64,000 nucleotides of DNA from Flaccisagitta enflata. Lineage: Eukaryota. The stretch spans positions 46,624,001-46,688,000 of the forward strand of contig OZ231126.1 in NCBI GenBank assembly GCA_965153355.1, in the 5' to 3' direction. This document shows positions 22,937-42,764 of the stretch, one piece after another. The notes below the pieces were generated by a model that made no database searches, was not told where the DNA came from, and saw only the letters and a list, made by a program, of their open reading frames with translations. The translations under genes were made by a program, and so were the position numbers. The number at the start of each line of letters is the position of its first letter. Position 1 is the first letter of the stretch.

Positions 22937-22953
22937 GAAAGAGAGAGAGAGAG

Positions 22954-23802
22954 TGTTACTGAGCAACCTCAGTATATATTTCTAATGCCCTATTATGCTC
23001 CTGCTTTAGCGTTCGCGCTGAGTCCTTGACTGCTTGCTTATGTCTTCTAATAAATACAGCGAAATCTTATCCAAACGAATTCTTTATTAGAAGAAGATAT
23101 CCAAAGCAACGTAGTTTGAACTGTAAAGGACAGATAATAATGGAATTTAGACAGAGACACAAAAGCTATATAGTTAGGCCAGATGCTTTAAGACTCTAAA
23201 AATGTAACATGAAAATGAATCTAATATGTAAAGGAGGCCCAAGTTACCTTGGTTATGCGCTGAGACGGTAAAGAAAAGTATCCAGTATTCTCCAAAATCA
23301 GAGGCAAAGTATGAGAGTAACAATCCAAATCAGTAAATCCGGAGCAAATAAATCGTAATAAATTCGCAGGAGAATCTATCGTAAATGAATAATGCGGAAG
23401 GGAATTTGGCGGCTCTCGACTAATTCTAAAAGTGGTCAACAGAGGGCGCTGAATTCCGCCGCCAAAATCGCCTAAACATAAGGCCCGCTCAAATCTACCG
23501 TAAACAAAAGGCCTCTTCGTAGGTAAAGCGAATTAAAGCAAAGGACGCGAATAAACCGAAACTAAACAGAGAATAAATCTATTCGGACAGACAATAATCA
23601 AATGGGACAGACATAAGGACAGTTCAGACAGACAAAGGACATCAAAATAATCATCAAAATATAAAATCAAAATAATCAACCTGAAAAGAAAAGATTAGAA
23701 ATACCCAAATACCTACCTGAAATATGAACCCAAATTCAATATATATAAACCAAAATAAATCAATACCAATAAGACATGGCCCCAAAACCTTGCTTCACGA
23801 CA
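22954..23802 (-). repeat. 3' LTR (849 bp)
   Basis: Direct repeat of 41918-42764; immediately preceded on the minus strand by the purine tract GGGGGGAG. Confidence 0.96.
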
Positions 23803-24439: not shown

Positions 24440-24487
24440 CAGCCTGTGCCCCGCCGAAGCGGGTCCCATCCGGGCGCAAGCAGGCTG
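24440..24487 (-). repeat. Structured 44-nt motif, copy 1 of 3
   Basis: gcctgtgccccgccgaagcgggtcccatccgggcgcaagcaggc; also present at 27416-27459 and 31150-31193. Confidence 0.85.
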
Positions 24488-24549
24488 ACGTCGAAGAGGT
24501 CCATTCCATTCGTCACTACGTCGCCATCGTCGTTGACGTTGTTGTTCCG

Positions 24550-24672: not shown

Positions 24673-24747
24673 TTGTTTCTTATCGTTGTTGTGTTGTTGT
24701 CGTTTACATTGGAGGTCGCGGTGCTAGATCCGTTACAGGCGAACGGA

Positions 24748-26555
24748 TCATTGCCGACGACCACCGCTGTCGGAGTTGTCGAGGATGTAAGCGAAGAAGG
24801 TGTTGATGCGTTCCGTGGAGTTGTTGAAGCGTACATGATAGTCGTGAAGTCGTCGATTGCTGATGATACGCTGTCGTCCCCAGTAACAAATCAGCTCCAC
24901 TCTTTCGCGGACGAGCCTTTCGTAGCGATCTTCCCTGTTGACGCGCCTTTGGATGATTCTTCGGAGATGGAAGGCGGCGAAGGCGCGGTAAATTACGCGC
25001 CGATCGTTGCCGTGATAACGGCAGAGGTTAGATTCGAAGGTCATCATACCGGTACGGTCAATGTGGTAGATGTATCGGTCGAGAAGCAATCCCCAGTCGT
25101 TGGTGACGGACGAGTAGCGCCATTCCCCTTCGAGGACGACGAGCGGATCGCGTCGGACGCGCATTCCAAGACCTCTTTTCAAATTGAGCAACAAGAAAGA
25201 GTCCACCTTGAACCACGTCCATACGTCTATCGCGCGTGCGGCGATGCCTCCAGGCGGGGCCCAATATGTCGACGCGTCGTCGCTGTCGTCGTCGTCGTCG
25301 TCGTAGCATCTTGCTCCGTAGAGATGGCGAATACTTTGGACGAACGACACGAACCCGCGATAAGAATATTTGTCCACAAACGTTTTTAGGAACGGCGGCG
25401 CCATGTCCACCATGCGTTCGGTCGAGACGATGTGGACCTTCCATTCGAGATCGAGGATCCATTGGCGAATGCTGTCGCTGAACTCCGTCGCTTCACTTTC
25501 CCAAACTCGTACCGTCGGTCCGCTTCCGTAGAGGTTTCCCATGAAGACGACCTTCTTGTCGAAGCGGAGGACTCGTCGGACAAGTCGCTGCGTTTCCTCT
25601 GTTCCCCAGCGATGTACTAGATGACAATCCGGCAAGTGAGGATTGTAATAAGCGATCGTTTTAAAGGTAAGTTTATCGGAAAGAGGCATTTTAACTTTCA
25701 ATAGTCCACTCGGATTGATTTTCAAGTGCCTAAATTTGGTCAAGTACCAGTGAACATAATAATTATCATTGCGATCGAGAGTTGAGATTCAACAAGTAGT
25801 TTAATATTTAGTGAATGATTAGCAGTCTAGTGAATACAGTATGACCGATCTCACATCAAATAAGCGGTCCCAGAATCGTTGATGTCATATTAACAAGTCT
25901 GGAATTCATTGGCATCGAGTGAATGAATCGAGTGTCTATCTAACATCGAATGAATGAATCTAGAATCAACTTGACATCGAATAAATGAATCTAGAATCAA
26001 CTTGTTATCGAATGAATGAATCTAGAATCAACTTGACATCGAATGGATCCAGCAGGAGATTATTAGTGTTGAATGAATGATCAGTTCAATTTTGAATCAT
26101 TTTCGGATCGAGTCGAGTGAATGATTTTGAGTTCGTGAATGAATTTGTGAGTGGATAAGGCAACAATTGTCCGGTTGAGCAAAGCGTGATAGTTTTTAAT
26201 GTTTTTCTAACATCAACTCTCTGGAGAGTATGCGTTATTCGCCGCCGTCACTTTTCTTCGGGTAGCTAATCCGTCGTCGGTCTTCGGAGGCGCCAACGCA
26301 ATTCTCCCCCCGTCGCCTTCTTTCGCCCACACTCGTCAGCGGAGGATCCTGAGGACGATGGAGTTGAGGGTCAATATTAATATCTATCGTTTAACTATGT
26401 TTCATAGCGTTTATAACGCATTCAAAGAGGGTATCATCGTCACACTCTATCATCGATACGCTTTGCTTAACCATTCTTACCGATGATCTTTCATCGTTGC
26501 CATTCGTTCGCTGACTAGAATTGCTCCTTTCACCGAAGTCGACTATCGTCCCCAT
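24748..26555 (-). CDS. Accessory gene B: main exon 25616-24748, tentative upstream exons 26555-26481 and 26348-26252 (~346 aa, unknown function)
   Basis: The 331-aa ORF has globular, aromatic- and Arg-rich composition and an acceptor catctag|TA. The upstream exons are phase-compatible (TCG|gtaaga..cctcag|GAT; AAA|gtgacg), but the second donor is weak. Confidence 0.55.
25915..26045. repeat. ~31-bp tandem repeat (atcgaatgaatgaatctagaatcaacttgac)
   Basis: Three to four degenerate units visible. Confidence 0.75.
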
Positions 26556-26819
26556 TGTTCGAGATCGAGAAGAAAGTCACCACGGTTTTCGTCGCCAATC
26601 AATTGTTTCAATTCATCTCTATACATCGAGTTTTCTCGCATTCTCTTGGAATGCGTCGTCTGAGTTTTTAATCTCTCTGATCGAGTCTGTACATTTTGAA
26701 TCATCACATCTTCAATGAATCTGAGGAAAATGACCATTTTTACGGTCCGGTGTTATCATCAATATCATTTTTATCATCATCATCATTTTATCTTTATCCT
26801 CTTTTTTTTTTAAATTTGC

Positions 26820-27125
26820 GATATCATCGTCATCGGCATTGTACATTTAACAGCAGTAATGTAATCACAATCATTGTGCCTTTTTTCCTATCTGAACGAT
26901 GAGACTGAATCTGTCAGTCCCTCTGACCGGAAAAAATATAGCGCTGATTTTTAACCACGAAGGTAATCTAAATATACATATCGTCATCGGCATCATATAG
27001 CAAAGCAATATAATCACAATCATCGTGCCTTTTTCCCTATCTGAACGATGAGACTGAATTTGTCAGTCTTTCTGACCGGAAAAAATATAGCGCTGATTTT
27101 TAACCACGCAGGTAATCTAGACATA
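26820..27125. repeat. Tandem duplication of ~160 bp inside the accessory region
   Basis: atatcatcgtcatcggcat...gtgcctttt...ctatctgaacgatgagactgaat...ctgaccggaaaaaatatagcgctgatttttaaccacg..ggtaatcta occurs twice. Confidence 0.8.
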
Positions 27126-27129
27126 CATA

Positions 27130-27380
27130 CCGGCATCAGCCGGGGAAAAATATGTTTGGCCTAAGCCGCAAGAAACATTGGCCGAAGCCACCAGAATTAT
27201 CAGGACTAAGCCTGCCAAAAATAATAGGCCGTAGCCAGACAAGAAAATATCGGCCGGAGCCGCCTAAAAATCAGGTCTAAGCCTGTACTTAAAACTAAGG
27301 CCGAAGCCATCAAAATAATCGGCTAAAGCCGCCAAAAAATCAGGTCTAAGCCTGTACTTAAAATATTGAGCCGTAGCTCA
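27130..27380 (-). repeat. Array of ~11 mini-hairpins (GGC-UNNG-GCC type on the minus strand) with variable U-rich spacers
   Basis: On +: ccggcatcagccgg, ggcctaagcc, tggccgaagcca, caggactaagcctg, ggccgtagcc, cggccggagccg, caggtctaagcctg, ggccgaagcc, cggctaaagccg, caggtctaagcctg, tgagccgtagctca; period about 21-28 nt. Confidence 0.75.
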
Positions 27381-27412
27381 CAAGCATTAAATCAAAGATA
27401 AATCATGAGGGA

Positions 27413-27462
27413 TCCGCCTGTGCCCCGCCGAAGCGGGTCCCATCCAGGCGCAAGCAGGCGGA
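27413..27462 (-). repeat. Structured 44-nt motif, copy 2 of 3
   Basis: Same core with one substitution; closing stem extended by tcc/gga. Confidence 0.85.
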
Positions 27463-27663
27463 CCCCTAAAAAAAAAAAATTTACGAGTATGATTGGATGC
27501 CATTAGGGCTGAAAACAGGCCGATTAGTGATTTGACGATGGATACAAGCCGATTGATGACGATGGATCAAATCTGATGATTGTATGTACATGATGATGAT
27601 GCTTCGAGGAGTGAAGTGCGGTGCTGCCGGCTTCAGGCGAGCCGGATCTGCCGCTACTTCTGC

Positions 27664-30600
27664 TCACTCAAAGTTCTTTCGCAGGTCATAGTAATCCCGC
27701 TTCCTCATGACGACGGCTGGCGGGTCGTGGCCGGGGGGGCGATGGACGTGGCCGCAGGCGCGGATTCCCTCCCAGTTGATGACCATGTGTTCTCCGATCG
27801 CCTTTTCCCATTCCCGAAGTCGGTCGTGGTGGCGGGCGACCCAGGAGGAGGCGTTGCAGACGATGAAGGCGCCTCTCGACCACACGCCGCAGGATTCTCC
27901 GGGAAGCGGTTCCGTGATGACCGGACCTGAAGCGAAGATGGTTCATCTAAATCTAACTGTTCTCCTAAGTCGAGTAAACTTAGGCTTAGATCTAGTTCTA
28001 AGTCTAACGGGTCAAAGCCTAATTCTTCTTCTAGATCTAACTCGACTAGTTCCTCTCTGTCTGTTCTAGGTTTTTCATTTGGTTCTGTCTGATCCTCAAT
28101 CGCTTCTAGGGTGGTATCTTCGTCATCGTTCTCTTCGAGATTCCCTTTTTTTAACTGATACAATTGATTGACTCTTTTTCTCTTTAATTTCCTTTTCTGC
28201 TGTCCTTCGTTCTCTTTCTCGTTTTTGTTCTTATCTTTGTTCTTTTCTTTGTTCTTTGCTTTGTTCTTTTCTTTGTTCTTTTCTTTGTTCTTTTCTTTGT
28301 TCTTCTCCTTCTTGTCCTCTGACGGCTCTATCGTCAACTTCTTCCGTTTTTTCTCTTCTTTTTCACCGTCTGAATTGTTTCTTTTTCTTTTCTGTTTTTC
28401 CTCGTCTGTTTTTTCTGTTTTTTCTTCGTCGGTTTTTTCTGTTTTTTCTTCATCGAGGAACTCGATTCTTCTTCTCTTTGACTCGATGTTTTCTTCTGCT
28501 TCTTCCTCATTTTTCTTTAGTTCTTCCGCCTTTCGTTTTTCTTCGAGTTCTTTTTCATATTTTTCTAGTTCTTCTTCAAAATTTCTAACCGGGCTGGCTG
28601 AGGCTGGATCAACTATTTGGACGGTATACCTTTTGCGGGGCAGAGGTAACCTCGGGAGAGAACGAGCGATTGCGTTTGTCTCCCGGATTTTCCTTGCCAG
28701 GGCAGTGTTGTGTGTTTTCTGCCATTCAATGTTTCTTTTGTTTGTTTCTTCTTTAGCTAGTGACTGTCTCAGATATATAATTCTTCCCTCTGTTTTTTCT
28801 ACCTCTTCATCTAGTTTCTTAGAGTGAGTAGCTAGCTGGTAGTTGTCAAGAAGTTTGCCTGACTTGGTGTAAATGGCCCCTGAATCGGCCTCCTGATCAA
28901 ATGGCCCCAAAGGGGAGATGTGGGTAAACTCGACATTGGGTCTGGTTAAGCCTGACTCTTCAATGGGTTTACCGGAGACGGGTAATGCGGCTCGACGGGC
29001 GTCTTCGGCAGCCTGTCGTCGGTCAGCGGCGTCGAGGGCGGTTCGGCGGCGGGCTGATCGCTTGCGATCCTCCTCCGCCAACCGTTTCGCCTGCTCGGAT
29101 TTGACGGACATGTTGGTGAAGTACTCGCTGGGGCGGTCGAAGTCGAGCTGTCGGCCGTCCCAGTTTTCCGCCGTCTTGACTTGAGCCTTTCGCCGGTGTG
29201 GATTGCAGCTGAGGATCTCGGAAGTCCGGTGTCCTTCGCGAAACGCGTAGTCGATGGTGGACGCCATTTGCTGCGGATTCAGACTTCCGTAAGGTCTCAA
29301 GGCCGCATCTTGCTGCAGAGCGATGTGGACTCGTCGGTCGAACTCGATCACCTTCTCGTCGACTTCTTTCTCGTTCATTCCGCGACCCAGCAAGGCTTGT
29401 CGGACGATGCCGCGATAAACATTCTGATTGGTTACATGAGGCAAAAAGGGGGGGGGGGGTTGTAAACATAAGTTGCTTCCCTGTCTCCTATTGCTCAGTT
29501 ACAAGTGTCCAAACAGGTGAAACATAATTCCAAGGTGATTTATAAACTGTTTTCCCGAATCCTACCACTAGTAAGCATGGTATTAAATTCATAGTTACTA
29601 GAAGAAAAGATCAGTAACAAATTGATATCCTAGGCTCACCCTAATCTTTCTGTCTTGAAGTTTGAGGGTGAACGCTTTATCGCGACGCGCTTGAGAGAGC
29701 CATTTGGGGACGCTCCACCCATGGGATCGCCAGAACTGAATGACTTCTGGGCCGATCTTCTTCTGCCACCGCTCGTTTAGCATCTCGGCTTCGGCGAGGG
29801 TCTTGCACGGCCTCACCTCAGAAAACATCGCGTTCTGTTCATCATGGGTGAGGGCCGCACGTTGGGACGGAGTGTGAGTGGGATGGGCTTCAAGTCCTCG
29901 GAACTCGAGAACTTTCTCCAGTTTGTCGATGTCGTCGTATTGCTCCCATTCTTCCTCGTCGATGTCATCCTCTGGATTGTTGCTGAACACTTGTTTGGCA
30001 ACGTCAACCAAGTCGGCTCGATCGTGGGCGCGATAGGAGATTTCCTTTCTTAGCTGTTTTCCTACAAGGGGAATTTGAGCCAATATTATTTGGTGTCATC
30101 ACCGTCCCCATGATAGAGTGAGAGAGAGAGAGAGAGCAGCGGAGGCGGCGTGGCTGTGCAAGGCTCGTCTGTAGACCTTGCCCGCTCCATGCTTCCTCCG
30201 CTGCTGATGATAAGACAACATTGACAGTGATAATCAGGCAGGTTGATTGTTTTGAATTAGTTATTACTAAACTATGCTAACCATTACTAAACTCTCGATT
30301 TCTAGCTATGCTAGCCATTACTAAACTCTCGATCTTTATCAGTTTTGTTGACTGAATTTGTTACCTGCTCGATCGATTTTGCAGGCATGCCTCTCGATGA
30401 AGTCCAGCGATTCAGGGATGTGGACATACACGGCTGGGAGCAAGACGTTAAATGTGTCCGCGATCGCCTTCCACTCTTCTTCAATGACCTCTTCGTCCTC
30501 TCTTCCCTTCTCCCTCTCTTCTTCCCTGTACCTTTCTCCCCCCGTTATCTTTGCCTCTTCCATCGTTTCCTTCCAATCTTTCTTCCTCTCCAACGCCTCT

Positions 30601-32036
30601 ATTCTGTCCCTAATACCTTGAACTTTCTCCCTTTCCCTCTTCTCCTGCTCTTCCTCACCCTTCTGCTTCTGCCTCATCCTTTCCGCTTCCTTCTGTCTTT
30701 CTCTTTCCGGCTTGTCTTCGGCGAATCTCTGCCTTCCTTCCTTTTCCGCTCTCTCCTTCGCCGCGTCGCGCAGCACGTGTCGTCGATGGGCGATGGCGTG
30801 GAATTTCTCCTCCACTTTCTTCAGTCTTAACTTATTCTCCTCCGCCTCCTTTTCTTCTTCAGGCAGAGCTGCCAACGCCGCCGATTCTTCCCTCATTCTC
30901 TTCAGTTTGTTTCTCCTTTTACGCTGGTTTCGGGTCAGCGGAGGAGGCATGGAGCGGGCGAGGGCTGCAGACGAGCCCTGCACAGCCACGCCTCCTCCAC
31001 TGCCCTCCACCGGCGGCCGAGGGGATGAGGAGCAAAGAGGAGGAGGAAGCGGCGGTGGCTCGACGGTCGACGAGGCGCTGGCGTCGGGTAGCCGGTTCAA
31101 CTTCTCCCGTAAGTCTTTAATGAAGACGTCGCATGGTCGAGAGGGCACAGCCTGTGCCCCGCCGAAGCGGGTCCCGTCCGGGCGCAAGCAGGCTGGCGTC
31201 TCGTTGGGAGAAGGGCAGCGCGGCGTCGAGATGGAAATGGGCGTCGCTGCGTCGATGCATCCCGCCAACATGGTGGACGCCAAAGAGACGTCCGTGGTCG
31301 ACGCGAGGGATGAAGTCGACGACGCCGGCGACGGATCAGGGGGAGGCATCATGAACGGCTGGAGATCGTGGCGGCGTTGAAGGGGGCGTCCTTTGGAGTA
31401 AGAGGAAAGGTTTTAGAGGCAAAAATATACATCGGGTGTAAGGCACGCGAGAAAATCGTCAACACAGTGGCTTACAAGAAAGATGACATCGAAAACGCAC
31501 TGAGAACAGGGTTCATATCGCTAATTATTCTTAAAGATTGCTTAACATGAGTGAATTGTGATTTATTAGGTGAAATGAGTGATTTCCTTGATCGTTAGGT
31601 TACAGGCTCGAATGACTCAGACACTGTGATTGTGGAAGGATCACATATTGATTAGTGGGAGTGACTTCTCACCTTTATGACGGAATGAGGGCACTTGACG
31701 CTGTGGCCGTGGTGGCGAATTGCGGCCCGTCAAGGCTTTGTGGCGGGGCACGCGGGGGGCTTTGAAGCCGTCCAAGGTTTGAGGCGGGAACATCACCGGT
31801 CTTTTCGCTTTGACCACCGGTTCCGCCGGCACTTCTTCCTCCGCTTCCGCCTCCTCGCCCGCGACGCTCTCCTTCAGCCAATCGTCCACCTGCTGGCGCT
31901 TATTCTCCCGTTGCTGTCGATGGTACGACCGCTCTTCATCTTGCTTCCTTTCGCTCTGGAATCGGTTGAAGCGGACTTCGTCCTCTTCGTCGTCGCTGAC
32001 CTGTCGGTCATGCATCGATCGATTTGGAGACGACAT
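27664..32036 (-). CDS. Accessory gene A: spliced, ~841-aa charged/proline-rich protein of unknown function. Exons 32036-31673, 31390-30365, 30061-29640, 29423-28973, 27926-27664; the last intron may be retained, giving a stop at 27705.
   Basis: Separate ORF-track ORFs (131, 337, 161, 579, 73 aa) join in frame at GT-AG sites with matching phases: AAG|gtgaga..ccaaag|GA, CAG|gtaaca..ttgtag|GA, AGG|gtgagc..aatcag|AAT, CCG|gtaaac..cttcag|GT. Exons are GC/CpG-rich and introns more AT-rich. No recognisable domain. Confidence 0.7.
31148..31195 (-). repeat. Structured 44-nt motif, copy 3 of 3 (inside a coding exon of accessory gene A)
   Basis: Same core with one loop substitution; translated as PACLRPDGTRFGGAQA. 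Confidence 0.85.
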
Positions 32037-33314: not shown

Positions 33315-36300
33315 TCACATCTCCAGCAGGATCAAGCTTCTAATGGCGCGGTCGACGATGCGGCCATTGCTTAATCTCACTAGAAAGCGTCGTCCGTGAC
33401 TTTCGTCGGAATTGATGATGCGGGTTATCCGGCCCATAGGCCAATCCTCGCGCGCAGTTGCGATGTCCTCGACCAGGACAAGGTCCCCGGGTTTCACGAC
33501 TGTTGATGACTGCTTCGAACGTTTCAACAGCTGTTGGAGGTAGTTGGCGCGGAATTGCTCCCAAAAGGCGTCGAGCAGGTATTGACTGCAGCGGAATCCA
33601 TGGCGTAGAACCGACGTTTTCTCCGCCTGAGGAGGAAGAATGTGATTCATGGTTGAGGTAAACAAGTATGGGTACAGGAAATGAGCTGGTGTGAGTGCCA
33701 TGTCATCGTCCACATCTGCTGATACTGGGGTTAGCGGACGCCTATTCATTATCGCACTGGCTCCAGACAGAAGCGTCTCGAAATCCTCTAGATCTACATT
33801 CTTGCTACCTATCACTGACCTCAATAATTTCTTGCTAAGCCCTACCAACCTTTCCCAACTACCACCGTAGCTGCCACAATAAGCTGGGCCAAATGTCCAG
33901 GTAAGTTCTAACTTATCTAGTTCCTCACTGAGATTTTCTTTTTTCCAAGCTGCAACTGACTCTTTAATTTCCCTATCTGCACCTCGAAAATTCGTGCCAT
34001 TGTCTGAGAAAATGTGTTTGAGTGCGGGAAACTGGGAATGTATTTTCACCAAAGAGTTAATGATGCTTGAAGTGGTCATGTCTCTAAGTGGGACTAGAGT
34101 GATTGCTCGGGTGGACATGCAACACGCAATCAAGACAAATTGTTTGCGGGTGCCGCGCCCTGTGTGGCGCAAATGGAATGGGCCCAGGCAGTCTAGTGCA
34201 CAGTGGTAGAATGGGGGTACTATGGCCATCCTTTCTGCTGGTAAGTTTCCTTCCTTTTGGGTGGCTTTGTTTTTGGACAGTCTTTGACAGGTGATGCATT
34301 TACTTATGACACTCCGGACTGAATTTTTACCCCCTAGGATGAAATATTTGCCCCTCAGCAGTAGATGGGTTTGCATTATGGTGCAATGAAATTTCTTGTA
34401 ATGGGCTTGGTGGTAATGTCTGATGATGGATTGGACTATCTCATGTGAGCTATTGGGCAGGATAATAGGGAATCTGTGGTTGTAAGGGAGATATTCAGCT
34501 TTAGCTATTCTCCCCCCTGCCCGCATCACATTCGACTCATCCAAAAATGGGCATAGTTTGGCCAACTTAGAATTTTTGATATTCATGTCTTGAATGGAAT
34601 TTGGTGAAAATATTCCCAGTTTGATCAGGCTGAGTATTTCTCGCTCAAATTCTACATTCTGAAGGGCCCTAACTAGCATATTTTCTGCATCTTCTCTTTC
34701 TGAGTCACTTAGGTGAATGATGTACTTATCTGGTTTTTCTATTTTTGTTCTCAGCCTAGTACTCATTACACCCTGTTGTTTGTTTTTAACCCTTTCTCTT
34801 AATTTCAAAATCACACGCTTTATTATCGCTACCCGGCGAATCTTTGTTCTCCATTCTGAGAGCTTACTTGTTGCCTTCAGTGGCCATGGTGCGAAGTCGT
34901 GATTTTGTGCCTCCACGATCGGTTCTTCCGTTGACCCGTAAGCGGCGATGATATTGAGAGCGGCGACGTCAGCCACCAATTCCGCCGGATTTTTGTTTGT
35001 CGGATTGGGTCGAACCGGGGGCCACTGTGAAAGGGGTAAAGAGAGAAAGGGCGGGCCTTGATGAAAAATATGCCATTTTTTGGTATCATTGGCTTTAATT
35101 CCTTCGGACGCGAGGTCCGCAGGATTCATTAAGGTGGGGCAATGGCGCCATTCAGATAAAGGTGACAATGATCTGATACACTTGACGCGGAAATTTTCAA
35201 ACGTTCTGAACCTTTTCGTAAAATTATTTAGCCACCCTAAAACAGTGAGTGAATCCGAAAAGATAAAGATGTCCTCAAATTCTTCCCCTGCATCCCTGAC
35301 TAACGTATCTCTCCATTGGGCGGCCACTTTGGCCGCGCACAATTCTAGCCTGGGGATGCTGTCTGAATGTGGGATAGCCCCCTTAGTTGGGTTAAGCATC
35401 ATATTGGTCGGCACGACATGCGCCTTACCGACCAAAAAGGAAACACTAATTTTATCTTCAGCTCCTCTCTGGTAACGGCGTAGGTAACTACACATCCCGT
35501 AGCCGTCCTTTGAGGCGTCACAAAAAAGAACTAGCTGACAGACTGAATGTTCCATACCCAAGGGGTTGGTCCACCTGCTTATCTTAATTTTCTTTAAATG
35601 GACTATTGTCTGTTGCCATTTAACTACGTCATTTTTCATCTCAGGGGTGAGGGCAGTTTTCCAGGGAATAGTGTCAGAGCTAATTTTTTGAAACAATAGC
35701 TTTCCTGGTAAAAGCCAGGGGCTTACCAACCCTATTGGGTCATACACTGACGCCACAAAGCTAAGTAGGTCTCGCTTAGTAACTATTTCCCTGTCTGGTT
35801 TGGTCCCTACCCTGACATTCATGACATCTTCTTCGAATGAGTAGCCTAGACCTAATACCTTGTCGCTTAGATCGGACTCATTCAGAAATTCTTTAGCACA
35901 ACTTTCTGTGTACCCGTTATTTAGGATACTCACCAATTCCGACGGTGATAGTTGAGCTTCTTGTTCTTCATCATCTGGATCCCCATCTTCATCTTCATCT
36001 GGATCCGCATCTTCCACTGGGGGCGTCGACGGGGTTGGGGGAGGTGCGCGGTGCTCCCCCAGACCACAGGCGGGCTGGCGCGTGCCGCGCCCTCCCGGAC
36101 ATCCGTGACCGCCCTTCGATGGTTCTGCATTTGCGCTTTGGCCCTTTGCCGTCTCGACTTGTGCCGGAGTAGCGACCTCCACGTTGGCGTTATCTCTGTC
36201 AAGAGGGGTAAGGGAAAGAGAGGATGGTAAATCAAGGTCGGGAAAATTCGACTTCCACTTGCATATATCCATGCCCCCTAATTTAAGCACTGCAGTTATT

Positions 36301-37757
36301 TCTGATTTTATCCTCCTAGCTGTCTCTTTATCATCTGTACTCTCTAGCAAGTCATCCACGTACATGGCGTAGAGTAACGCCAAGTACGTGTCTACACTAA
36401 TCTTGTCCTTATGTGTTTCTGCGTGAAGCTTGAGGATAAAATTGGAGATGGTGGGTGATGAAGTCACGCCGAACATATGGCGCAAACTTTCAATCATTAC
36501 CACCTTCTCCATGGTCTCGTCAGACCACCAAGGATAGCGCAAGGCTGAGCGATCCCTAGGGTCTAACAATATCTGAAAAAAAAAGTTTGTGATATCCGCC
36601 GAAATGGTGTATCTTTTTCGGCGGAATCGCAAAATTACTTTTATTAGGCCATTCAAAATGTCAGGACCGCTAAACAAGTATTTATTCAAAAAATGAGGAC
36701 CGACTCTGGAAGCGGCGTCCTGACAAATCCGGAATTTTCCGGGTTTGTCAGGTTTAACTACAATATGATTTGGCAAATAACAGACAACATTTTCGGGGGG
36801 GGCGTCTAATGTGTCTATTATCCGCGCATGCCCCGCTTCCAGAGTCATCCTCATCTGTTTAAAGGATCCCTCTTTGAGGGTCGGGTTTAGTCTAAATTTG
36901 CGTTCCAGTTTTGAATGGCGGTTCATGGTCATTTTGTAAAAATCTATGGTTTTGAACAGGTCAGCGGTGGGTTGGCGCCCTAAACGCCATGGCATGGTGA
37001 TTTCCCACCTTCCTTCTTCTTCTACAAATCTAGCTGATTCCTGCATCATCTTTAAACTCTGTTCATCTTCAACTGATCTATGTGTCATCTCTTGAGGAAA
37101 TAGCTCGAAGTCCCTACAGATGAAATCCTGTCTGAACATTCTATTTATCATATTTGCCAGGGTGATGGTTTCAGCACTAATGGTCATGATGTTGTTAGCC
37201 TGAATATCATTTTCATCATCTTCCTCTTCATTGTCATTTAAAATTCTGGGGCCTATAATCGCATGGCCAAATTTTGTTCCCAGTGCTAAGGGCTCGTCAT
37301 GTTTGCCCAGGCGGTTATCTCCCGTGCAAAAATAATATGCGTACTTAGCATCAAGCAACAGATTAATTTCTTTATCTTCTAATTCACATATTTTCAGATC
37401 CTTTAAATGCTCAAAACAACTCAATTCGCTTTGGGTGGGGGGTTTTTCTGTTTCTGTAGATAATTGGCTACCAATAAGGGCGTTTTCTACTTTTATTTCA
37501 AAGGTGTTACTCAAATTAGTAACTTTGAAGGAAGTGATTTGTCTTGTAGCATTTGAGGAACTGTCAAAGGTGTTTAATTTAACTGAAATTGATTTTCTGG
37601 GTGCATTTAACTCATTGCAAAGTGACTCAGTTACGGCGCTTGTGTTAGCGCCGGTATCTATGAGTGCGTAAGTGGGGCGTCTTTTACCATTTACATGAAT
37701 CATCACAGGTACAATGGGCCTGGTGGCACCGTGACGCCCCACGAACGCAGCCCTCAG
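33315..37757 (-). CDS. pol: Bel/Pao Pol: aspartic protease, reverse transcriptase, RNase H, integrase; in frame with gag after a single TGA
   Basis: YALIDTGANTS (PR); KFRICQDAAS, ADITNFFFQI, FGVTSSP, YVDDLL (RT); LFCDAS, IPRLELCAA, FSDSLTVLGW, NPADLAS (Pao RNase H); CITCQR, LDCLGP, SDNGTNF, GGSWERLV (IN); FWEQF...PGDLVLV...WPMGRI (DUF5641-like). No internal stops. Confidence 0.97.
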   Translation of the reverse strand: MRAAFVGRHGATRPIVPVMIHVNGKRRPTYALIDTGANTSAVTESLCNELNAPRKSISVKLNTFDSSSNATRQITSFKVTNLSNTFEIKVENALIGSQLSTETEKPPTQSELSCFEHLKDLKICELEDKEINLLLDAKYAYYFCTGDNRLGKHDEPLALGTKFGHAIIGPRILNDNEEEDDENDIQANNIMTISAETITLANMINRMFRQDFICRDFELFPQEMTHRSVEDEQSLKMMQESARFVEEEGRWEITMPWRLGRQPTADLFKTIDFYKMTMNRHSKLERKFRLNPTLKEGSFKQMRMTLEAGHARIIDTLDAPPENVVCYLPNHIVVKPDKPGKFRICQDAASRVGPHFLNKYLFSGPDILNGLIKVILRFRRKRYTISADITNFFFQILLDPRDRSALRYPWWSDETMEKVVMIESLRHMFGVTSSPTISNFILKLHAETHKDKISVDTYLALLYAMYVDDLLESTDDKETARRIKSEITAVLKLGGMDICKWKSNFPDLDLPSSLSLTPLDRDNANVEVATPAQVETAKGQSANAEPSKGGHGCPGGRGTRQPACGLGEHRAPPPTPSTPPVEDADPDEDEDGDPDDEEQEAQLSPSELVSILNNGYTESCAKEFLNESDLSDKVLGLGYSFEEDVMNVRVGTKPDREIVTKRDLLSFVASVYDPIGLVSPWLLPGKLLFQKISSDTIPWKTALTPEMKNDVVKWQQTIVHLKKIKISRWTNPLGMEHSVCQLVLFCDASKDGYGMCSYLRRYQRGAEDKISVSFLVGKAHVVPTNMMLNPTKGAIPHSDSIPRLELCAAKVAAQWRDTLVRDAGEEFEDIFIFSDSLTVLGWLNNFTKRFRTFENFRVKCIRSLSPLSEWRHCPTLMNPADLASEGIKANDTKKWHIFHQGPPFLSLPLSQWPPVRPNPTNKNPAELVADVAALNIIAAYGSTEEPIVEAQNHDFAPWPLKATSKLSEWRTKIRRVAIIKRVILKLRERVKNKQQGVMSTRLRTKIEKPDKYIIHLSDSEREDAENMLVRALQNVEFEREILSLIKLGIFSPNSIQDMNIKNSKLAKLCPFLDESNVMRAGGRIAKAEYLPYNHRFPIILPNSSHEIVQSIIRHYHQAHYKKFHCTIMQTHLLLRGKYFILGGKNSVRSVISKCITCQRLSKNKATQKEGNLPAERMAIVPPFYHCALDCLGPFHLRHTGRGTRKQFVLIACCMSTRAITLVPLRDMTTSSIINSLVKIHSQFPALKHIFSDNGTNFRGADREIKESVAAWKKENLSEELDKLELTWTFGPAYCGSYGGSWERLVGLSKKLLRSVIGSKNVDLEDFETLLSGASAIMNRRPLTPVSADVDDDMALTPAHFLYPYLFTSTMNHILPPQAEKTSVLRHGFRCSQYLLDAFWEQFRANYLQQLLKRSKQSSTVVKPGDLVLVEDIATAREDWPMGRITRIINSDESHGRRFLVRLSNGRIVDRAIRSLILLEM

Positions 37758-40700
37758 TCAGTCAGTATCGTCACCGCCATCTGAAGCTTCATCTGACTCG
37801 CTATCTTGATTCTGTTCTGTCTGTCTTTTGTAATCCCGATGTAATAGCGAGTGATGAAACCCCCCTGTACAATGATCGCACTCAATCCCTGAGTCACAGT
37901 TCTTTGCAATGTGACCATGCTGAAAACATCTGTGGCATAGTCCTCTGGTTTTTAGAACTAAAAATCTCCCATACTGGTTTTTAGCTAGGAACTCTTTACA
38001 GTTGGTAAGCTCATGGAACTTGGACCGGTTGCAGACGGGGCACGACCAATTACCTGTAGTCTGTTTGGAAGTGGCTGCAGATTGGTTGTTGTTCCCTGAC
38101 GCCGAAGAGTCAGTGTTGGCGCCCTTTCTTTGATTGTTGGCGGCGTCGTTTCCGCCTGAGGGGCGCTTGCCGGTTCCATAAGTCTGAGATTGTTGTTTTT
38201 GTTGCGTCTCGAGTTTGGCGGCCGCCACCTGTGCAGCCTTTTGTTGCTGTTGTTTGACCGAAGTTTGCGACGCCGCGGGAGTGTTGTCTGAAGGTGAGGT
38301 ACTGTTGTTGCCGGGAGTAGAGTCATTTCCTCCTTGCGGCTTTCCTCTCCCTCTCCCTCGCTTTCCTCCTCCTCCTCTGAAATTGTTGGTTGTTTCGGGG
38401 GCGCCGTTGGTTGATGTTGGTGACGCCGCTATAGCGTCAATTTTCATTGTCCTGGCGTCTTTCTTATTTTTGGGCGTCTCTTTGGGACCTCCAATCAACT
38501 CTCGTTCGTCCGAGATGAAATTTTGCGACCTGAGGAAAGTTAGGAAATCATCAAAACGGGGTTCAGGTTCCGCATTTTCAGGTTCAACACCCATGACCTG
38601 TTTACCCCTTTCGACTGCCCATCGATTTTTTACAAATGGAAGTTTTTTCCTAATTATCTTGTTTATAGTGTCAGCGTTATCAAAGGAATTAGCCCTTCCT
38701 GAGGCTTTAGCCTTAGTGACCTCCCCTTCTAGGTTGATTCTAAACTTTTTAAAGGCTGCTGTATCCTCCTGTTTAATAGCTGCTCCTGTTAAGAGACGAT
38801 CTATTATGGCTTGAGCTGACCGGGCATGATACCCATACTCCTGTTTGAGGTGACGGATTGCTTTTTGTAGATTCTCTTTGGGGTCCCCCTCTCCCTCATA
38901 GAGTTCACATATTTTAGCGGCGTCGCCGCTAAAATAGTGTTTTAATTCATAACACTGTTCCTGGGGGGCTACTTTTGATTCCTCAGTAACTCTCTTAAAT
39001 CTAAGCAGGGTGGATTCGAAATCTACATTATGATTCCCGTCAAACCTCTGATCGATGGGCAGTCGGTTGGACTTCAAATAATCCCTAGCATTACCAGCAG
39101 TTTGAATTAATAGTAACTGTACAGCAGCATCTTTAGCCGGGTCTGGCACACCATTAGCAGCACCTGACGAACTGTTAACTGTGTTCGATTGATTGCTAAC
39201 TGTGTTTGACTGACTGTTAACTGTGCCTGGCTGACTGTTAACTACATTTGAGGGGTTGTTAACCGCACCTGCTGATGATTGTGAGGAGTCATTTTGGTTT
39301 CCAGGACTGGTAACCGTCGATTGGTAGTCTTCGTCGTCGTCGGATAATGGCGTCCGATCTAATGGCGTTGGGTTCGTTGCGACGGGTGGAGGATTTGTTG
39401 CTGCCGGGAGCGAGGGCGCCGCCGCGGGAATCGAGTTCGCCGCCGCAGCTGATGTAGGACTCACTCCCGCTGGAATCGGGTTTGCCGGCGCGGTCATCGC
39501 CTGTGGGACCGAATTAGATTGAGGATTAATCGGTCCAACCGGATTTACAGTCGGGTAAATGGGCAATGAGGGCGGGGGCATTTGGAACCTTGGGTCAAAA
39601 TAAGGCCATACAAACTGAGGGTTAGGCCAGGGAAATGTTTGACCTGATGGGGGCATCTGAATGACTGGGGGATTCACAGGGCTGGTACAGGCTACAGGCG
39701 AGCCTGCCGCTGCCGTGACTCCTCCAGCCGGGTGGAAAAGAGGGTTAGACTGAGGTGCCCTGGGGTTAATTGGATGGTTAATAGGCCCATTTATTCCTGA
39801 TTGGGCTCCGCGCCTAACAGTACTAGCAGTGATGGTTGAACTGCCTGAATCGGATGAATGATGATGATCGGGCTGACCCGACCTGACTTGACCTGACCTG
39901 ACCCGTCCTGACCTTACCTGTTCAGGCTGACCGGTTTGGGTCTGATTGGGGGCTGATGTTTGAATGTTCTGATTTTGACCTTGAATTGGAGCTGGGTAAG
40001 TCTGATCGGGGTCATGGTTAAATTGACTCTGAGGGGTATTGTCTTGCCTTATAACTGGGGTGATAGATTGATTACCGGAATGACCCACTTGAGGCTGATT
40101 ATTTTGGTCAATGGGAATCGAGGGATTAGAGGATTGATTCCTGTCATGCCTAGAGGATCGAGATCGAGGTGGTCTGTCATTACGGTCCGTATTTCTCGAG
40201 CAAGAGGAAATTGAGTCGGTCGGTCTGACCGCTGCCTGATTAGGGTCATTTTGAGTATCTAACCAGGAATCTGTACGGGTTGGACCGACTGGTGCTAAGG
40301 CTGCTCCACCGAGTGGATGTTGGAGCAGATCGCTTAGTTCGCCCACGGCAGCGTTTACATGTCTGCCTATTGACTGCAAGCTGGTATTATGTGCTTGTTC
40401 AGATATCCTAGTCATCTCCTCCTCATATCTTTGAACCCTTCTTTCAAGCCTACCCTTCTTTCTGTGAATTGAGTCATACCTAACACGTAGAATCGAGGTG
40501 GCATTTCCGGCGTTGGCGGTGGCCGGCGGGCTCTCGTCCATAGCGGGCTGATCGAAGTTAGTCCGATTAGAGGCCGTTGATGAGGAGACTAACGAGGTAT
40601 GGTCGGTCATCCCGGATACTAAGGATGTTGCATTAGATCGAGATGGAATTTCGCGGCGTCCGGCGCTGTTATTGCTTTCCGGCGGCGCCCTTTCGCGCGT

Positions 40701-41450: not shown

Positions 41451-41908
41451 GATAATTTCTTTTTAACTAAAGTCGATCAGGGGGTTTAGATCCTTAAATA
41501 GTTCAGGCCAAAGATCTTGGGTCAAGAAGGCTCGCGTACCGAGGCCTAACTGACGCCTAAGATACTAAATTCTGTTCTTCCTGGACACGGCGCCCCTCCT
41601 AAGGGATGGGCGCGAGGACTAATTATCGGACGGGCGTGACCCTTAGATGAACAAGTTTCTAACAACGCAGTTTCTCTTATAAATCCTATCTGACGGCCGA
41701 AGCTCTTCCCGGAGGAAAAGCACGGAACGTAATTTAACGAGAATTAGCAATGGACCGGCGCCCGTCGTGAGAGGGGCGCGGTCCTAAATTCGGATCGGTA
41801 AATAAATCTGAGAATTGTACTCGTCGAATACTCACCCACGGAGACGAAGTCTTTGACGTTTCCAAACGCAATTAAGCAAGAGCATAAAAAGAGCGCGCGA
41901 TATCAACA

Positions 41909-41917: not shown

Positions 41918-42764
41918 TGTTACTGAGCAACCTCAGTATATATTTCTAATGCCCTATTATGCTCCTGCTTTAGCGTTCGCGCTGAGTCCTTGACTGCTTG
42001 CTTGTCTTCTAATAAATACAGCGAAATCTTATCCAAACGAATTCTTTATTAGAAGAAGATATCCAAAGCAACGTAGTTTGAACTGTAAAGGACAGATAAT
42101 AATGGAATTTAGACAGAGACACAAAAGCTATATAGTTAGGCCAGATGCTTTAAGACTCTAAAAATGTAACATGAAAATGAATCTAATATGTAAAGGAGGC
42201 CCAAGTTACCTTGGTTATGCGCTGAGACGGTAAAGAAAAGTATCCAGTATTCTCCAAAATCAGAGGCAAAGTATGAGAGTAACAATCCAAATCAGTAAAT
42301 CCGGAGCAAATAAATCGTAATAAATTCGCAGGAGAATCTATCGTAAATGAATAATGCGGAAGGGAATTTGGCGGCTCTCGACTAATTCTAAAAGTGGTCA
42401 ACAGAGGGCGCTGAATTCCGCCGCCAAAATCGCCTAAACATAAGGCCCGCTCAAATCTACCGTAAACAAAAGGCCTCTTCGTAGGTAAAGCGAATTAAAG
42501 CAAAGGACGCGAATAAACCGAAACTAAACAGAGAATAAATCTATTCGGACAGACAATAATCAAATGGGACAGACATAAGGACAGTTCAGACAGACAAAGG
42601 ACATCAAAATAATCATCAAAATATCAAATCAAAATAATCAACCTGAAAAGAAAAGATTAGAAATACCCAAATACCTACCTGAAATATGAACCCAAATTCA
42701 ATATATATAAACCAAAATAAATCAATACCAATAAGACATGGCCCCAAAACCTTGCTTCACGACA
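41918..42764 (-). repeat. 5' LTR (847 bp)
   Basis: Begins tgttactgagc and ends cttcacgaca on +; matches 22954-23802 apart from one 2-bp indel and one substitution seen by eye; lies upstream of gag on the minus strand. Confidence 0.96.

What the first reader, a model, noticed from the sequence alone, without database searches (positions are those of the whole stretch)
27130..27380. Periodic array of ~11 covarying mini-hairpins with UNCG-type tetraloops
Seen: regularly spaced short palindromes whose stems vary but stay paired (tggc/gcca, cagg/cctg, cggc/gccg, tgagc/gctca). Minus-strand loops include C(UUCG)G, C(UACG)G and C(UCCG)G plus UUAG variants, and the spacers are U-rich and mostly non-identical. 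Established: cUNCGg is an exceptionally stable RNA tetraloop. Inference: structure rather than sequence is maintained, which suggests a multivalent protein-binding RNA scaffold (export, packaging or localisation element) downstream of accessory gene A and next to a three-way-junction motif.
Basis: partly seen in the sequence, partly recalled or inferred. Interest (0 to 1): 0.75.

Follow-up and report, generated by a model that had tools for sequence, protein, structure and literature searches.

The report
Hairpin-repeat array inside a giant retrotransposon
A real, regularly spaced run of about eleven tiny GC-rich hairpin-forming repeats sits in the non-coding part of an unusually large Bel/Pao retrotransposon; it may be a multi-site RNA docking element, but this is unproven.

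Summary
Window 27130-27380 holds 11 short GC-rich palindromes, with centres 22-26 nt apart and A/T-rich spacers between them. The array is a diverged higher-order tandem repeat: a unit of about 70 nt carrying three hairpins. It lies in the non-coding spacer between two conserved accessory ORFs of a 19.8 kb Bel/Pao LTR retrotransposon on the minus strand.

Cores are more conserved than spacers, and the outer stem pairs covary. This favours selection for hairpins. Against a sense-RNA role:
- every G.U-rescued pair lies on the antisense strand
- stems are only 3-5 bp
- folding z-scores are weak
- copy number varies between genomic copies
- no RNA read covered the array in the one run laid

No Rfam family matches, and no homologous array could be fetched from elsewhere. 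Best reading (about 0.38): a multivalent cis-acting RNA hairpin array. The main rival (about 0.30) is a neutral hypervariable repeat of the kind known from LTR-retrotransposon untranslated regions.

The adjacent "three-way junction" is one of three conserved copies in the element. It pairs better on the sense strand.

The parts
27130..27380 (-). Array of 10-11 mini-hairpin units (u11...u1 in ascending coordinates). It is a diverged higher-order tandem repeat of about 70 nt, with three hairpin types (A1, B, A2) per unit.
27244..27363 (-). The two best-preserved higher-order repeat copies (27244-27294 and 27313-27363, 88% identical). Their 6 differences fall 3 in a loop, 3 in spacers and 0 in stems.
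   Evidence: D6; differences read directly from the two printed sequences
27405..27467 (-). Junction module J2: a stem carrying two hairpins, one capped C(UUCG)G. Sense strand -39.5 kcal/mol (z -3.99); antisense -32.8 (z -3.11).
27468..27479 (-). U12 tract on the sense strand (A12 on plus), directly upstream of J2. It is unique to J2 among the three J copies.
31141..31193 (-). Junction module J1, 90.6% identical to J2 over 53 nt with unrelated flanks. It lies inside the stop-to-stop ORF 30339-31412.
24442..24489 (-). Junction module J3, 95.8% identical to J2 over 48 nt. It lies 259 nt after the stop of the P0004 gene and is preceded by a 20-nt tandem repeat.
26855..27140 (-). Two copies of a 149-bp repeat (26855-26991 and 27004-27140, 91%) abutting the array.
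27705..29498 (-). Accessory ORF A (stop-to-stop 597 aa). The N-terminal ~290 aa are conserved (85% identity to two database proteins). The middle is K/E-rich and variable. The basic KRK..KRKRV and Leu/Asp-rich LGFDPLDLE.DL motifs are conserved. No Pfam family.
24748..25689 (-). Accessory gene P0004 (313 aa from its ATG). It has 5 database homologues at 98, 79, 75, 43 and 39% identity and no Pfam family.
33315..37757 (-). pol: aspartic protease, RVT_1, Peptidase_A17 (Pao), integrase zinc finger, DUF5641.
37758..41462 (-). gag-like ORF with a CX2CX4HX4C knuckle near its C-terminus. It is in the same frame as pol, separated by one stop codon.
41918..42764 (-). 5' LTR (TG...CA).
22954..23802 (-). 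3' LTR, 99.65% identical to the 5' LTR over 849 aligned columns. It is preceded by the polypurine tract AAAACGGGGGGAG (23815-23803, sense).

Best explanation
The array is a cis-acting structured module of the retrotransposon's own (minus-strand, sense) RNA. It would form a string of about eleven small GC stem-loops, most capped by YNMG/UNCG-type tetraloops and separated by U-rich single-stranded linkers, next to a stable junction module. It would act as a multivalent docking platform offering many near-identical hairpin shapes to one protein. That protein could be the element's Gag/NC, the neighbouring accessory protein ORF A, or a host factor. The purpose would be export, stabilisation, packaging or dimerisation of the full-length RNA.

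Shown here: the array's anatomy, its place inside the element, its repeat nature, its presence in many genomic copies, and the excess of pairing. Inferred: that the array arose and keeps changing unit number through template switching or unequal recombination, that the sense RNA is the active form, and that a protein binds it.
For: 1. Cores are conserved and spacers are not. Core identity is 0.77; spacer identity is 0.58, against a shuffle baseline of 0.50. G7, C8, U9 and C14 are invariant. This is the pattern of a site array, not of a homogeneous young minisatellite.
2. Pairing exceeds shuffles. 80% of 50 stem cells pair, against 67.3% in shuffles; 0 of 500 shuffles reach the observed pairing or covariation score. 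All slid registers give at most 42%. In the outer two pairs, 12 of 20 cells pair against 6.6 expected (P = 0.0018).
3. Within each repeat lineage, read from A1, every changed stem pair in columns 5-8/13-16 is changed on both sides and still pairs. u1 has G-C and A-U where u4 and u7 have UxU and G-C. u9 has U-A where u3 and u6 have C-G. There are no one-sided changes there.
4. Four different stems (GGC/GCC, CAGG/CCUG, UGAGC/GCUCA, CCGGC/GCCGG) all keep the same hairpin register. A single dsDNA-binding protein would not explain that.
5. On the sense strand 5 of 11 loops are C(UNCG)G and 9 of 11 fit YNMG. YNMG is defined in PMC5633025 (passages read), where an enterovirus protein reads that loop class.
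6. The sense strand is the transcribed strand of the element.
7. The adjacent J module pairs better on the sense strand. It has two G.U pairs that become CxA on the antisense strand, and one compensatory CG/AU pair among its three copies.
8. GC-UNCG-GC occurs 10 times on the sense strand of the element and once on the antisense strand. The window total is 12, against 2.79 expected.
9. Word depth over the array bins in organism A's DNA runs (X1: 1060-1713) matches that over the pol 3' end (812-1758). Bins 29243-32122 are 178-377. The array is therefore carried by about as many laid contigs of at least 85% likeness as pol. Depth is a poor copy-number measure.
Against: 1. Every non-Watson-Crick cell that a wobble rescues is rescued on the antisense (plus) strand. 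These are the inner pair of u2/u5, pair 5-16 of u10 and pair 4-17 of u7. The sense strand has CxA there and no extra G.U (antisense 14 of 20 outer cells paired against 12 of 20 on the sense strand).
2. Thermodynamics are weak. Sense z-scores for the four 120-nt windows over the array are -2.02, -0.69, -0.04 and -1.76. Antisense values are -2.47, -1.51, -1.68 and -2.12.
3. In the unrestricted sense fold only 4 of 11 hairpins have pair probability of 0.5 or more. With span limited to 30 nt, 7 of 11 reach 0.85, the same count as on the antisense strand.
4. Three units have only 3 Watson-Crick pairs.
5. The statistics count paralogous units. Collapsed to 8 distinct outer-stem states, pair 5-16 pairs in 5 of 8, which is not significant.
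6. One covarying swap (C-G to U-A) lies on mirrored CpGs, with u10 as the one-step intermediate, so CpG decay can mimic covariation.
7. Genomic copies differ by whole repeat units, and the same 3' region holds at least five other tandem repeats without hairpins.
8. In the one polyA RNA run laid (about 6 in 100 of its reads), none of the 82 laid reads lay on the array.
9. No Rfam family matches.
10. No binding partner was tested.
Confidence: 0.38

Rival explanations
1. The array is a neutral hypervariable tandem repeat. It is one of the repeat arrays that build up in the untranslated or spacer regions of large LTR retrotransposons, through abnormal strand transfer during reverse transcription or through unequal recombination. 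The palindromic core is inherited from the founding unit. It may itself promote pausing and slippage, but it serves no purpose for the element.
For: - TRF detects the array as a degenerate repeat. It has a ~70-nt higher-order unit.
- DNA contigs of organism A and of a marine metagenome show forms lacking exactly one higher-order unit (joints 27193>27290, 27197>27290, 27237>27318), a 47-nt back-step, and a 2-nt spacer insertion.
- The same 3' region carries 12-, 24-, 20-, 31- and 149-nt repeats.
- Tandem repeats that vary in monomer sequence and length are described as common in the 3'UTRs of plant Tat/Ogre elements. They are ascribed to illegitimate recombination or abnormal strand transfer (PMC7004042, passages read).
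- Folding z-scores are weak and the wobble pairs are on the wrong strand.
- No RNA reads lay on the array.
Against: - The spacers have decayed almost to the shuffle baseline (0.58 against 0.50), while cores stay at 0.77 and remain palindromic.
- Within-lineage stem changes are all two-sided.
- Pairing and covariation exceed all 500 shuffles and all slid registers.
- Four different stem sequences keep one hairpin register.
- Faster slippage in A/T-rich spacers could explain part of the core/spacer contrast, but not the compensatory changes.
Confidence: 0.3
2. The hairpins matter on the other strand. They would act either in an antisense (plus-strand) transcript of the element or in the single-stranded minus-strand cDNA made during reverse transcription, which has the window's plus-strand sequence. 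There, hairpins with A-rich linkers would act as pause or strand-transfer sites, or as a structured antisense RNA.
For: - All wobble-rescued pairs are on the plus strand: TGGC/GCCG and CAGGT/GCCTG x2. On the plus strand 14 of 20 outer cells pair, against 8.0 expected, with none of 20000 shuffles reaching this.
- Plus-strand z-scores over the array are more uniformly negative, -1.51 to -2.47.
- A-rich linkers do not compete for pairing. In the unrestricted fold 5 of 11 hairpins keep probability of 0.5 or more.
Against: - Plus-strand loops (CGAA, CGUA, CGGA, CUAA) belong to no stable tetraloop class that I know of (recalled).
- The neighbouring J module is less stable on this strand and has CxA mismatches there.
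- No antisense gene or promoter was found. The plus-strand ORFs nearby have no Pfam match or mirror low-complexity coding repeats.
- Only 3-4 wobble events are involved. A G-to-A bias on the sense strand, common in retroelements (recalled), would create them without selection.
Confidence: 0.12
3. The array works as double-stranded DNA. It would be an internal enhancer- or insulator-like block of about 70 bp modules, each carrying two or three short protein-binding cores set in A/T-rich DNA. It might drive or shield the downstream accessory gene (P0004).
For: - The layout is conserved short cores with variable A/T-rich spacers, repeated about 3.5 times as a ~70-bp module.
- It lies 1.4-1.7 kb upstream of a conserved gene that needs some means of expression.
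- Arrays of this layout are known in insect retroelement leaders, for example the gypsy Su(Hw) site array (recalled, not checked in a paper here).
Against: - Half-site changes come in complementary pairs (u1 AGC...GCU, B units AGG...CCU). This keeps a palindrome but would destroy a fixed recognition sequence.
- The conserved loop letters are asymmetric (U9 invariant, its mirror column 12 is G in 9 of 11). That does not fit a symmetric dimer site.
- No known motif was matched.
Confidence: 0.1

Closest known systems
Hypervariable tandem-repeat regions in the 3'UTRs of plant Tat/Ogre LTR retrotransposons (Macas et al. 2009 as cited in Vondrak et al. 2019, PMC7004042; passages read)
   Same: Short tandem repeats lie in non-coding DNA between the last ORFs and the 3' LTR of a very large LTR element. 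Monomer number varies among copies. The presumed origin is strand-transfer errors during replication.
   Different: That case is in plant Ty3/gypsy-lineage elements, while this is a metazoan Bel/Pao element. Here every unit is a short palindrome with a conserved core, covarying outer pairs and near-random spacers. The passages I read do not describe that feature for the plant repeats.
Dispersed packaging signals of ssRNA viruses: multiple stem-loops sharing a coat-protein recognition motif (Twarock et al. 2018, PMC6281560; abstract and passages read)
   Same: Many small stem-loops vary in sequence around a shared loop/stem motif. Their spacing matters, and together they would give multivalent, cooperative protein binding.
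   Different: Those signals are dispersed over a genome and are experimentally bound by coat protein. Here the hairpins are tandem, clustered in 250 nt, and no binding is shown.
YNMG/UNCG tetraloop recognised by a viral protein (enterovirus oriL domain d and protein 3C; PMC5633025, passages read)
   Same: The loop class is the same: 5 of 11 loops are UNCG and 9 of 11 fit YNMG on the sense strand. The loop sequence drifts within the class.
   Different: That case is a single hairpin in a cloverleaf, not an array. That paper reports UUAG (4 of the 11 loops here) as never found in its data set. Three of the four UUAG loops here lack a closing pair on the sense strand.
Retroviral post-transcriptional cis elements beside accessory genes: HIV RRE, HTLV RxRE, MPMV CTE, RSV direct repeats (recalled, no paper read here)
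   Same: They lie in the 3' half of the full-length RNA near accessory genes. Some are built from repeats and bind several protein copies.
   Different: Those are long, complex stem structures with internal loops, not beads-on-a-string mini-hairpins. None is known from Bel/Pao elements. No sequence or Rfam similarity was found.
gypsy Su(Hw) insulator: about 12 short binding cores with A/T-rich spacers in a retroelement leader (recalled)
   Same: About a dozen conserved short cores are separated by variable A/T-rich spacers at roughly 25-bp spacing inside an LTR element.
   Different: That array acts as dsDNA, its core is not palindromic, and it lies in the 5' leader. Here the cores covary as palindromes.

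Membership tests
Any Rfam 15 RNA family | Covariance-model match at or near the family's gathering score | tested here: not met
   cmscan of 22900-42800, both strands, E up to 1. There were 4 weak chance-level matches (all far below gathering), none on the array or the J modules.
C(UNCG)G / YNMG tetraloop hairpins | Loop sequence U-N-C-G (or Y-N-M-G) on the strand read as RNA | tested here: inconclusive
   On the sense strand 5 of 11 loops are UNCG and 9 of 11 are YNMG; 2 of 11 (UUUA, UGAU) fit neither. None fits on the plus strand.
C(UNCG)G / YNMG tetraloop hairpins | Closing C-G pair and a stable stem | tested here: inconclusive
   A closing C-G pair is present in 8 of 11 units: the five UNCG units, u10, u3 and u11. 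It is absent in the three B units, which have CxA or CxU. Stems are 3-5 bp. Single-hairpin energies are -2.6 to -8.9 kcal/mol.
C(UNCG)G / YNMG tetraloop hairpins | The loop actually adopts the UNCG fold in the RNA | not testable with these tools
   Needs probing or NMR.
Tandem repeat (minisatellite) of LTR-retrotransposon non-coding regions | Head-to-tail units detectable as a repeat | tested here: met
   TRF reports periods 22-25 and 2.6-4.6 copies. The higher-order unit is about 70 nt.
Tandem repeat (minisatellite) of LTR-retrotransposon non-coding regions | Unit number varies among copies of the element | tested here: met
   Joints skipping 96, 92 and 80 nt and one going back 47 nt were seen in contigs of 3 DNA runs. 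Only 15 of 49 joints were listed.
Tandem repeat (minisatellite) of LTR-retrotransposon non-coding regions | Lies in non-coding DNA inside the element | tested here: met
   The array lies between ORF A (stop at 27705) and P0004 (ATG at 25689). No ORF of 100 aa or more crosses it.
Bel/Pao LTR retrotransposon (host element) | Two LTRs with TG...CA ends, a polypurine tract, and pol with protease, RT, Pao peptidase (A17) and integrase | tested here: met
   LTRs are 849 aligned columns at 99.65% identity. TG/CA ends and the PPT were read. Pfam gives Peptidase_A17 at 4.5e-37, plus RVT_1, Integrase_H2C2 and DUF5641.
Rev/Rex-type response element | Bound by an element-encoded shuttling protein and needed for export of unspliced RNA | not testable with these tools
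   Only suggestive motifs are seen in ORF A: an Arg-rich stretch, the basic KRK..KRKRV, and the Leu/Asp-rich LGFDPLDLE.DL, the last two conserved in two homologues.
dsDNA binding-site array (Su(Hw)-type insulator or enhancer repeats) | Match to a known binding motif, with function as duplex DNA | not tested
   No motif library was available. Complementary paired changes in the half-sites argue against one fixed dsDNA motif.

The most novel reading that the evidence does not exclude
This giant Bel/Pao element is a 'complex' invertebrate retroelement with its own post-transcriptional control system. The hairpin array would be a multivalent response or packaging element read by an element-encoded protein. 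The best candidate is ORF A, which carries an arginine-rich stretch, a basic NLS-like motif and a conserved leucine-rich acidic motif. The three conserved J junction modules would mark the ends of its accessory-gene units. This would be a Rev/RRE-like or packaging-signal-like solution that evolved independently of retroviruses.
Probability: 0.1. Interest if true: 0.85.

Novelty: new variant of a known kind. Interest (0 to 1): 0.5.

Why it matters
If the hairpins are selected, this would be the first cis-acting structured RNA array described for a Bel/Pao element. It would also be a natural example of a tandem, multivalent stem-loop platform in a retroelement that carries at least two conserved accessory genes. 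Accessory genes paired with their own RNA control elements are usually associated with complex retroviruses, so this would show the same arrangement arising in invertebrate retrotransposons. If the array is neutral, it is still a clear animal counterpart of the hypervariable repeat regions known from giant plant LTR elements, and a possible seed for satellite DNA.

Tried and rejected
1. Homologous arrays elsewhere.
- No whole genome is held for the window.
- Two pattern scans of metagenome contigs were run. The first gave 0 hits. The second gave 27 single-match loci with no blastn similarity and no motif cluster, so they are chance hits.
- Viral contigs: the array pattern gave 0 hits and the J-module 26-mer gave 0. 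The P0004 alignment gave 1 weak 50-residue match, L028, which was not followed. ORF A homologue P0011 gave 0 and the pol C-terminal half gave 0.
- Genome contigs: the J 26-mer gave 0 and the P0004 alignment gave 0.
- Earlier-findings look-ups by place, sequence and words returned nothing.

2. Per-base variation of the array among genomic copies. Read laying listed only 40 of 1105 difference rows, none inside 27130-27380. The stem-versus-spacer substitution test on real copies could therefore not be done.

3. RNA evidence. No RNA holder was listed by the look-up of sequencing runs.

4. Plus-strand retroposon tail (array + hairpin + A12 as the 3' end of a LINE/SINE on the plus strand). Rejected for these reasons:
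- there is no target-site duplication of 8 nt or more
- there is no RT-like plus-strand ORF
- ATTAAA lies 76 nt from the A-run
- the J module recurs twice more in the element without an A-run

5. Accessory protein function.
- Pfam gave nothing for ORF A, ORF 30339-31412, P0004 and three further ORFs.
- The AlphaFold model of P0004 was poor (pLDDT 47.3), so no fold search was made.
- The ESM Atlas gave no usable hit for ORF A, and only sub-0.9 phage-cluster leads for P0005.

6. Known protein-binding hairpin or DNA motifs considered by eye and dropped (all recalled, none tested):
- histone stem-loop (stem too short, wrong loop)
- NFI TGGC-N5-GCCA (the spacing here is N4)
- Smaug CNGG loops
- boxB
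- Sm-site-like AUUUUUGG linkers (about 2 of 10 spacers only)

7. Literature. Searches for a described hairpin or tetraloop array in retrotransposons found nothing relevant. This covers only the held open-access library.
Full report
WHAT IS THERE

Window 27130-27380 contains 11 short GC-rich palindromes. Their centres are 22-26 nt apart. On the minus strand the units, numbered u1 to u11 from 27380 down to 27130, align without gaps (alignment A1). G7, C8, U9 and C14 are invariant, and G6 and C15 are nearly so, giving a core of GGCU-NNN-(G/A/U)CC.

The minus-strand loops are UACG, UUAG, UUUA, UUCG, UUAG, UCCG, UACG, UUAG, UUCG, UUAG and UGAU. Nine of 11 fit the wider YNMG class, whose definition I took from passages of PMC5633025.

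The motif GGCYNNAGCC occurs at 6 sites in the array and at 1 other site in the 64 kb window. That is 9 strand-matches against 1.61 expected, with 0 of 100 shuffles reaching 9. Spacers are 50% U on the minus strand and nearly randomised: pairwise identity is 0.58 against 0.50 after shuffling. The 10-nt cores have identity 0.77.

IT IS A TANDEM REPEAT

TRF reports the region with periods of 22-25, 64-70% matches and 9-17% indels. The repeat finder shows a higher-order unit of about 70 nt. Segments 27244-27294 and 27313-27363 are 88% identical, and the CAGG-type unit recurs at spacings of 71 and 69 (D6 and D9).

Each higher-order unit holds three hairpin types, in sense order A1, B, A2. The eleventh unit overlaps the end of a neighbouring 149-bp repeat (26855-26991 and 27004-27140, 91% identical) and shares an 18-nt motif with it (D2 and D7).

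WHERE IT SITS

Two 849-column direct repeats, 22954-23802 and 41918-42764, are 99.65% identical. They start with TG and end with CA. Between them, on the minus strand, lie:
- a 1234-aa gag-like ORF with a CCHC knuckle
- a 1480-aa pol with aspartic protease, RVT_1, Peptidase_A17 (4.5e-37), integrase zinc finger and DUF5641

A polypurine tract, AAAACGGGGGGAG, abuts the 3' LTR. This is a Bel/Pao LTR retrotransposon of about 19.8 kb. That is much longer than the 4-10 kb I recall as usual for the group; I did not find lengths in PMC3118150.

About 9.5 kb lie between pol and the 3' LTR. That stretch holds several minus-strand ORFs with no Pfam family. Two of them are real genes by conservation:
- ORF A (27705-29498) has two database homologues at 85% identity over its N-terminal part.
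- P0004 (25689-24748) has five homologues at 98, 79, 75, 43 and 39% identity.

The array lies in the 2 kb non-coding spacer between these genes, 325 nt after the ORF A stop.

THE NEIGHBOURING JUNCTION MOTIF

The GC-rich stretch 27405-27467 folds into a stem bearing two hairpins, one of them capped C(UUCG)G. Its energy is -39.5 kcal/mol (z -3.99) on the sense strand and -32.8 (z -3.11) on the antisense strand.

It is one of three direct copies in the element:
- J1, 31141-31193, 90.6% identical to J2
- J2, core 27416-27463
- J3, 24442-24489, 95.8% identical to J2

The flanks of the three copies are unrelated. All core pairs are kept in the three copies. One pair is CG in J2 and AU in J1 and J3. 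One pair is C-G in two copies and U.G in J2, which pairs only on the sense strand. With three sequences this is not statistically significant (159 of 500 shuffles).

J2 lies 238 nt after the ORF A stop and J3 lies 259 nt after the P0004 stop. Neither J1 nor J3 has a hairpin array beside it, so the array is not an obligatory partner of J.

IS PAIRING SELECTED?

Evidence for:
- On A1, with a 5-bp stem and 4-nt loop, 80% of 50 cells pair, against 67.3% in shuffles. None of 500 shuffles reaches the observed pairing or covariation score. Sliding the 3' arm by 1-3 columns gives 14-42% (the 11 rows collapse to 10 distinct).
- Pair 5-16 shows CG, AU, GC and UA.
- In the outer two pairs, 12 of 20 cells pair against 6.6 expected (P = 0.0018).
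- Within each repeat lineage, every changed stem pair in columns 5-8/13-16 is changed on both sides and still pairs. This applies to u1 against u4 and u7, and to u9 against u3 and u6 (read).
- The 6 differences between the two best-preserved higher-order copies fall in a loop (3) and in spacers (3), with none in stems.

Evidence against:
- The units are paralogues, so cells are not independent. Collapsed to 8 distinct outer-stem states, pair 5-16 pairs in 5 of 8.
- The inner three pairs are conserved as sequence, which a sequence-specific reader would also explain.
- The C-G to U-A swap lies on mirrored CpGs, with u10 as the one-step intermediate. CpG decay alone can produce it.

I rate selection for hairpin potential as more likely than not, but unproven.

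WHICH STRAND?

For the sense strand:
- It is the transcribed strand.
- The loops are UNCG/YNMG only on this strand.
- J pairs better on this strand.
- GC-UNCG-GC occurs 10 times on the sense strand of the element and once on the antisense strand.
- CUNCGG occurs 32 times against 11, or 27 against 11 without the array.

For the antisense strand:
- Every wobble-rescued cell is on the plus strand (u2/u5 inner pair, u10, u7). The sense strand has CxA there.
- The 120-nt window z-scores over the array are -1.5 to -2.5 on the plus strand, against -0.04 to -2.0 on the sense strand.
- In the unrestricted sense fold only 4 of 11 hairpins keep probability of 0.5 or more, because the palindromic units pair with each other.
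- With pairing limited to a 30-nt span, both strands keep 7 of 11 hairpins at 0.85 or more.

The strand question is open. A G-to-A bias on the sense strand (recalled as common in retroelements) would explain the wrong-strand wobbles without selection.

EVIDENCE FROM OTHER COPIES

No genome is held for this window. One search for sequencing runs found DNA runs of a coded organism A and several marine metagenomes that hold parts of the stretch.

Laying four runs on 23803-33400 at 85% likeness gave these results:
- The family is highly repeated. Word depth over the array bins is 1060-1713 in X1 and 702-1595 in X2, similar to the pol 3' end. It is 125-377 over 29243-32122. Depth is a poor copy-number measure.
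- Some copies lack exactly one higher-order unit (joints 27193>27290, 27197>27290, 27237>27318), one has a 47-nt back-step, and some have a 2-nt spacer insertion at 27338.
- The inserted letters at the joints include a B-type unit with loop CTGA in place of CTAA. One has CCTA in place of CCTG, which on the sense strand turns the outer C-G into U.G.
- Only 40 of 1105 difference rows were listed, none in the array. The stem-versus-spacer substitution test could not be made.
- The polyA RNA run (about 6 in 100 of its reads) laid 82 reads, all on low-complexity stretches and none on the array.

All scans of metagenome, viral and prokaryote-genome collections for the array, the J module, P0004, ORF A or pol gave nothing related.

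WHAT IT MOST LIKELY IS

My estimates are as follows.
- Multivalent stem-loop array in the element's sense RNA: 0.38. Conserved hairpin cores, covarying outer pairs and YNMG caps on the transcribed strand, beside a conserved structured module, fit this best. It is conceptually closest to the dispersed packaging signals of ssRNA viruses (PMC6281560, passages read) and to retroviral response elements beside accessory genes (recalled).
- Neutral hypervariable repeat: 0.30. This kind is known from the 3'UTRs of giant plant LTR elements (PMC7004042, passages read). Copy-number variation, the many other repeats in the same region and the weak thermodynamics favour it.
- Hairpins acting on the antisense RNA or the minus-strand cDNA: 0.12.
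- dsDNA enhancer or insulator block: 0.10.

The rest is unassigned. No Rfam family matches. My four literature searches for hairpin or tetraloop arrays in retrotransposons found no description of such an array.

VERDICT

The feature is real and sits in an unusual element: a giant Bel/Pao with conserved accessory genes and three copies of a structured module. The evidence for selection rests on paralogous units in a single copy, and the strand signals conflict.

Noticed in passing
window 31141-31193, 27405-27467, 24442-24489 (minus): The 'three-way junction' is a ~50-nt module present three times in the element at 90-96% identity with unrelated flanks. Two copies lie 238 and 259 nt after the stop codons of accessory ORFs. 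There is one compensatory pair and one sense-only G.U. No Rfam match.
   Followed up: partly
window 22954-42764 (minus): The host element is a ~19.8 kb Bel/Pao LTR retrotransposon with near-identical LTRs (99.65%). gag and pol are in one frame, separated by a single stop codon. A 9.5 kb 3' part carries several ORFs with no Pfam family. The element is inserted in a (GA/CT)n microsatellite, so the target duplication (possibly CTCTC) is uninformative.
   Followed up: partly
window 24748-25689 (minus): P0004 is a conserved 313-aa protein with invariant motifs APPFLKTF and KVDS.LLL.LKRGLG. Homologues go down to 39% identity, all unnamed and from metagenome or run assemblies. There is no Pfam family, and the AlphaFold model is poor (pLDDT 47).
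   Followed up: partly
window 27705-29498 (minus): ORF A has a conserved N-terminal domain with an Arg-rich stretch (DRKRSA.RRT...DRRQ..EDARRA). It also has a variable K/E-rich repeat region encoded by 12- and 24-nt DNA repeats, a conserved KRK..KRKRV.QLYQL basic motif, and a conserved Leu/Asp-rich motif LGFDPLDLE.DL.L.LL.L.
   Followed up: partly
window 24540-24700; 25913-26045; 26855-27140; 28224-28455: The 3' part of the element holds further tandem repeats: a ~20-nt A/C-rich repeat before J3, a 31-nt repeat (4.3 copies), a 149-bp repeat (2 copies), and coding 12/24-nt repeats. Loose ends in DNA contigs at 26862, 26957 and 27106 suggest that part of the 149-bp unit also occurs in other contexts.
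   Followed up: no
window 29243-32122 and 27643-27962: Word depth of laid DNA contigs is 5-8 times lower here than over pol, P0004 and the array. This suggests that many family members lack these stretches or have diverged beyond 15% in them.
   Followed up: no
element sense strand, 22954-42764: The hexamer CUNCGG occurs 32 times on the sense strand and 11 times on the antisense strand (27 against 11 without the array). Outside the element the two orientations are 9 and 11.
   Followed up: partly
window 41463-41917 (minus): The 5' leader holds GC-rich inverted repeats, for example GGACCGCGCCCC...GGGCGCCGGUCC near 41785-41750. It also holds an AGCUUCGGCC motif (41695-41704) that is one letter off the array's A-type core, but with only a 2-bp stem.
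   Followed up: no
window 43538-43896; 46293-46852; 48479-48973; 56787-57336; 7251/14980/20602: The rest of the window is very rich in micro- and minisatellites: 9-, 20- and 55-nt arrays and long (GA)n runs. It also holds a 261-nt direct repeat at 98% identity and a ~97-nt dispersed repeat in three copies. None was examined.
   Followed up: no
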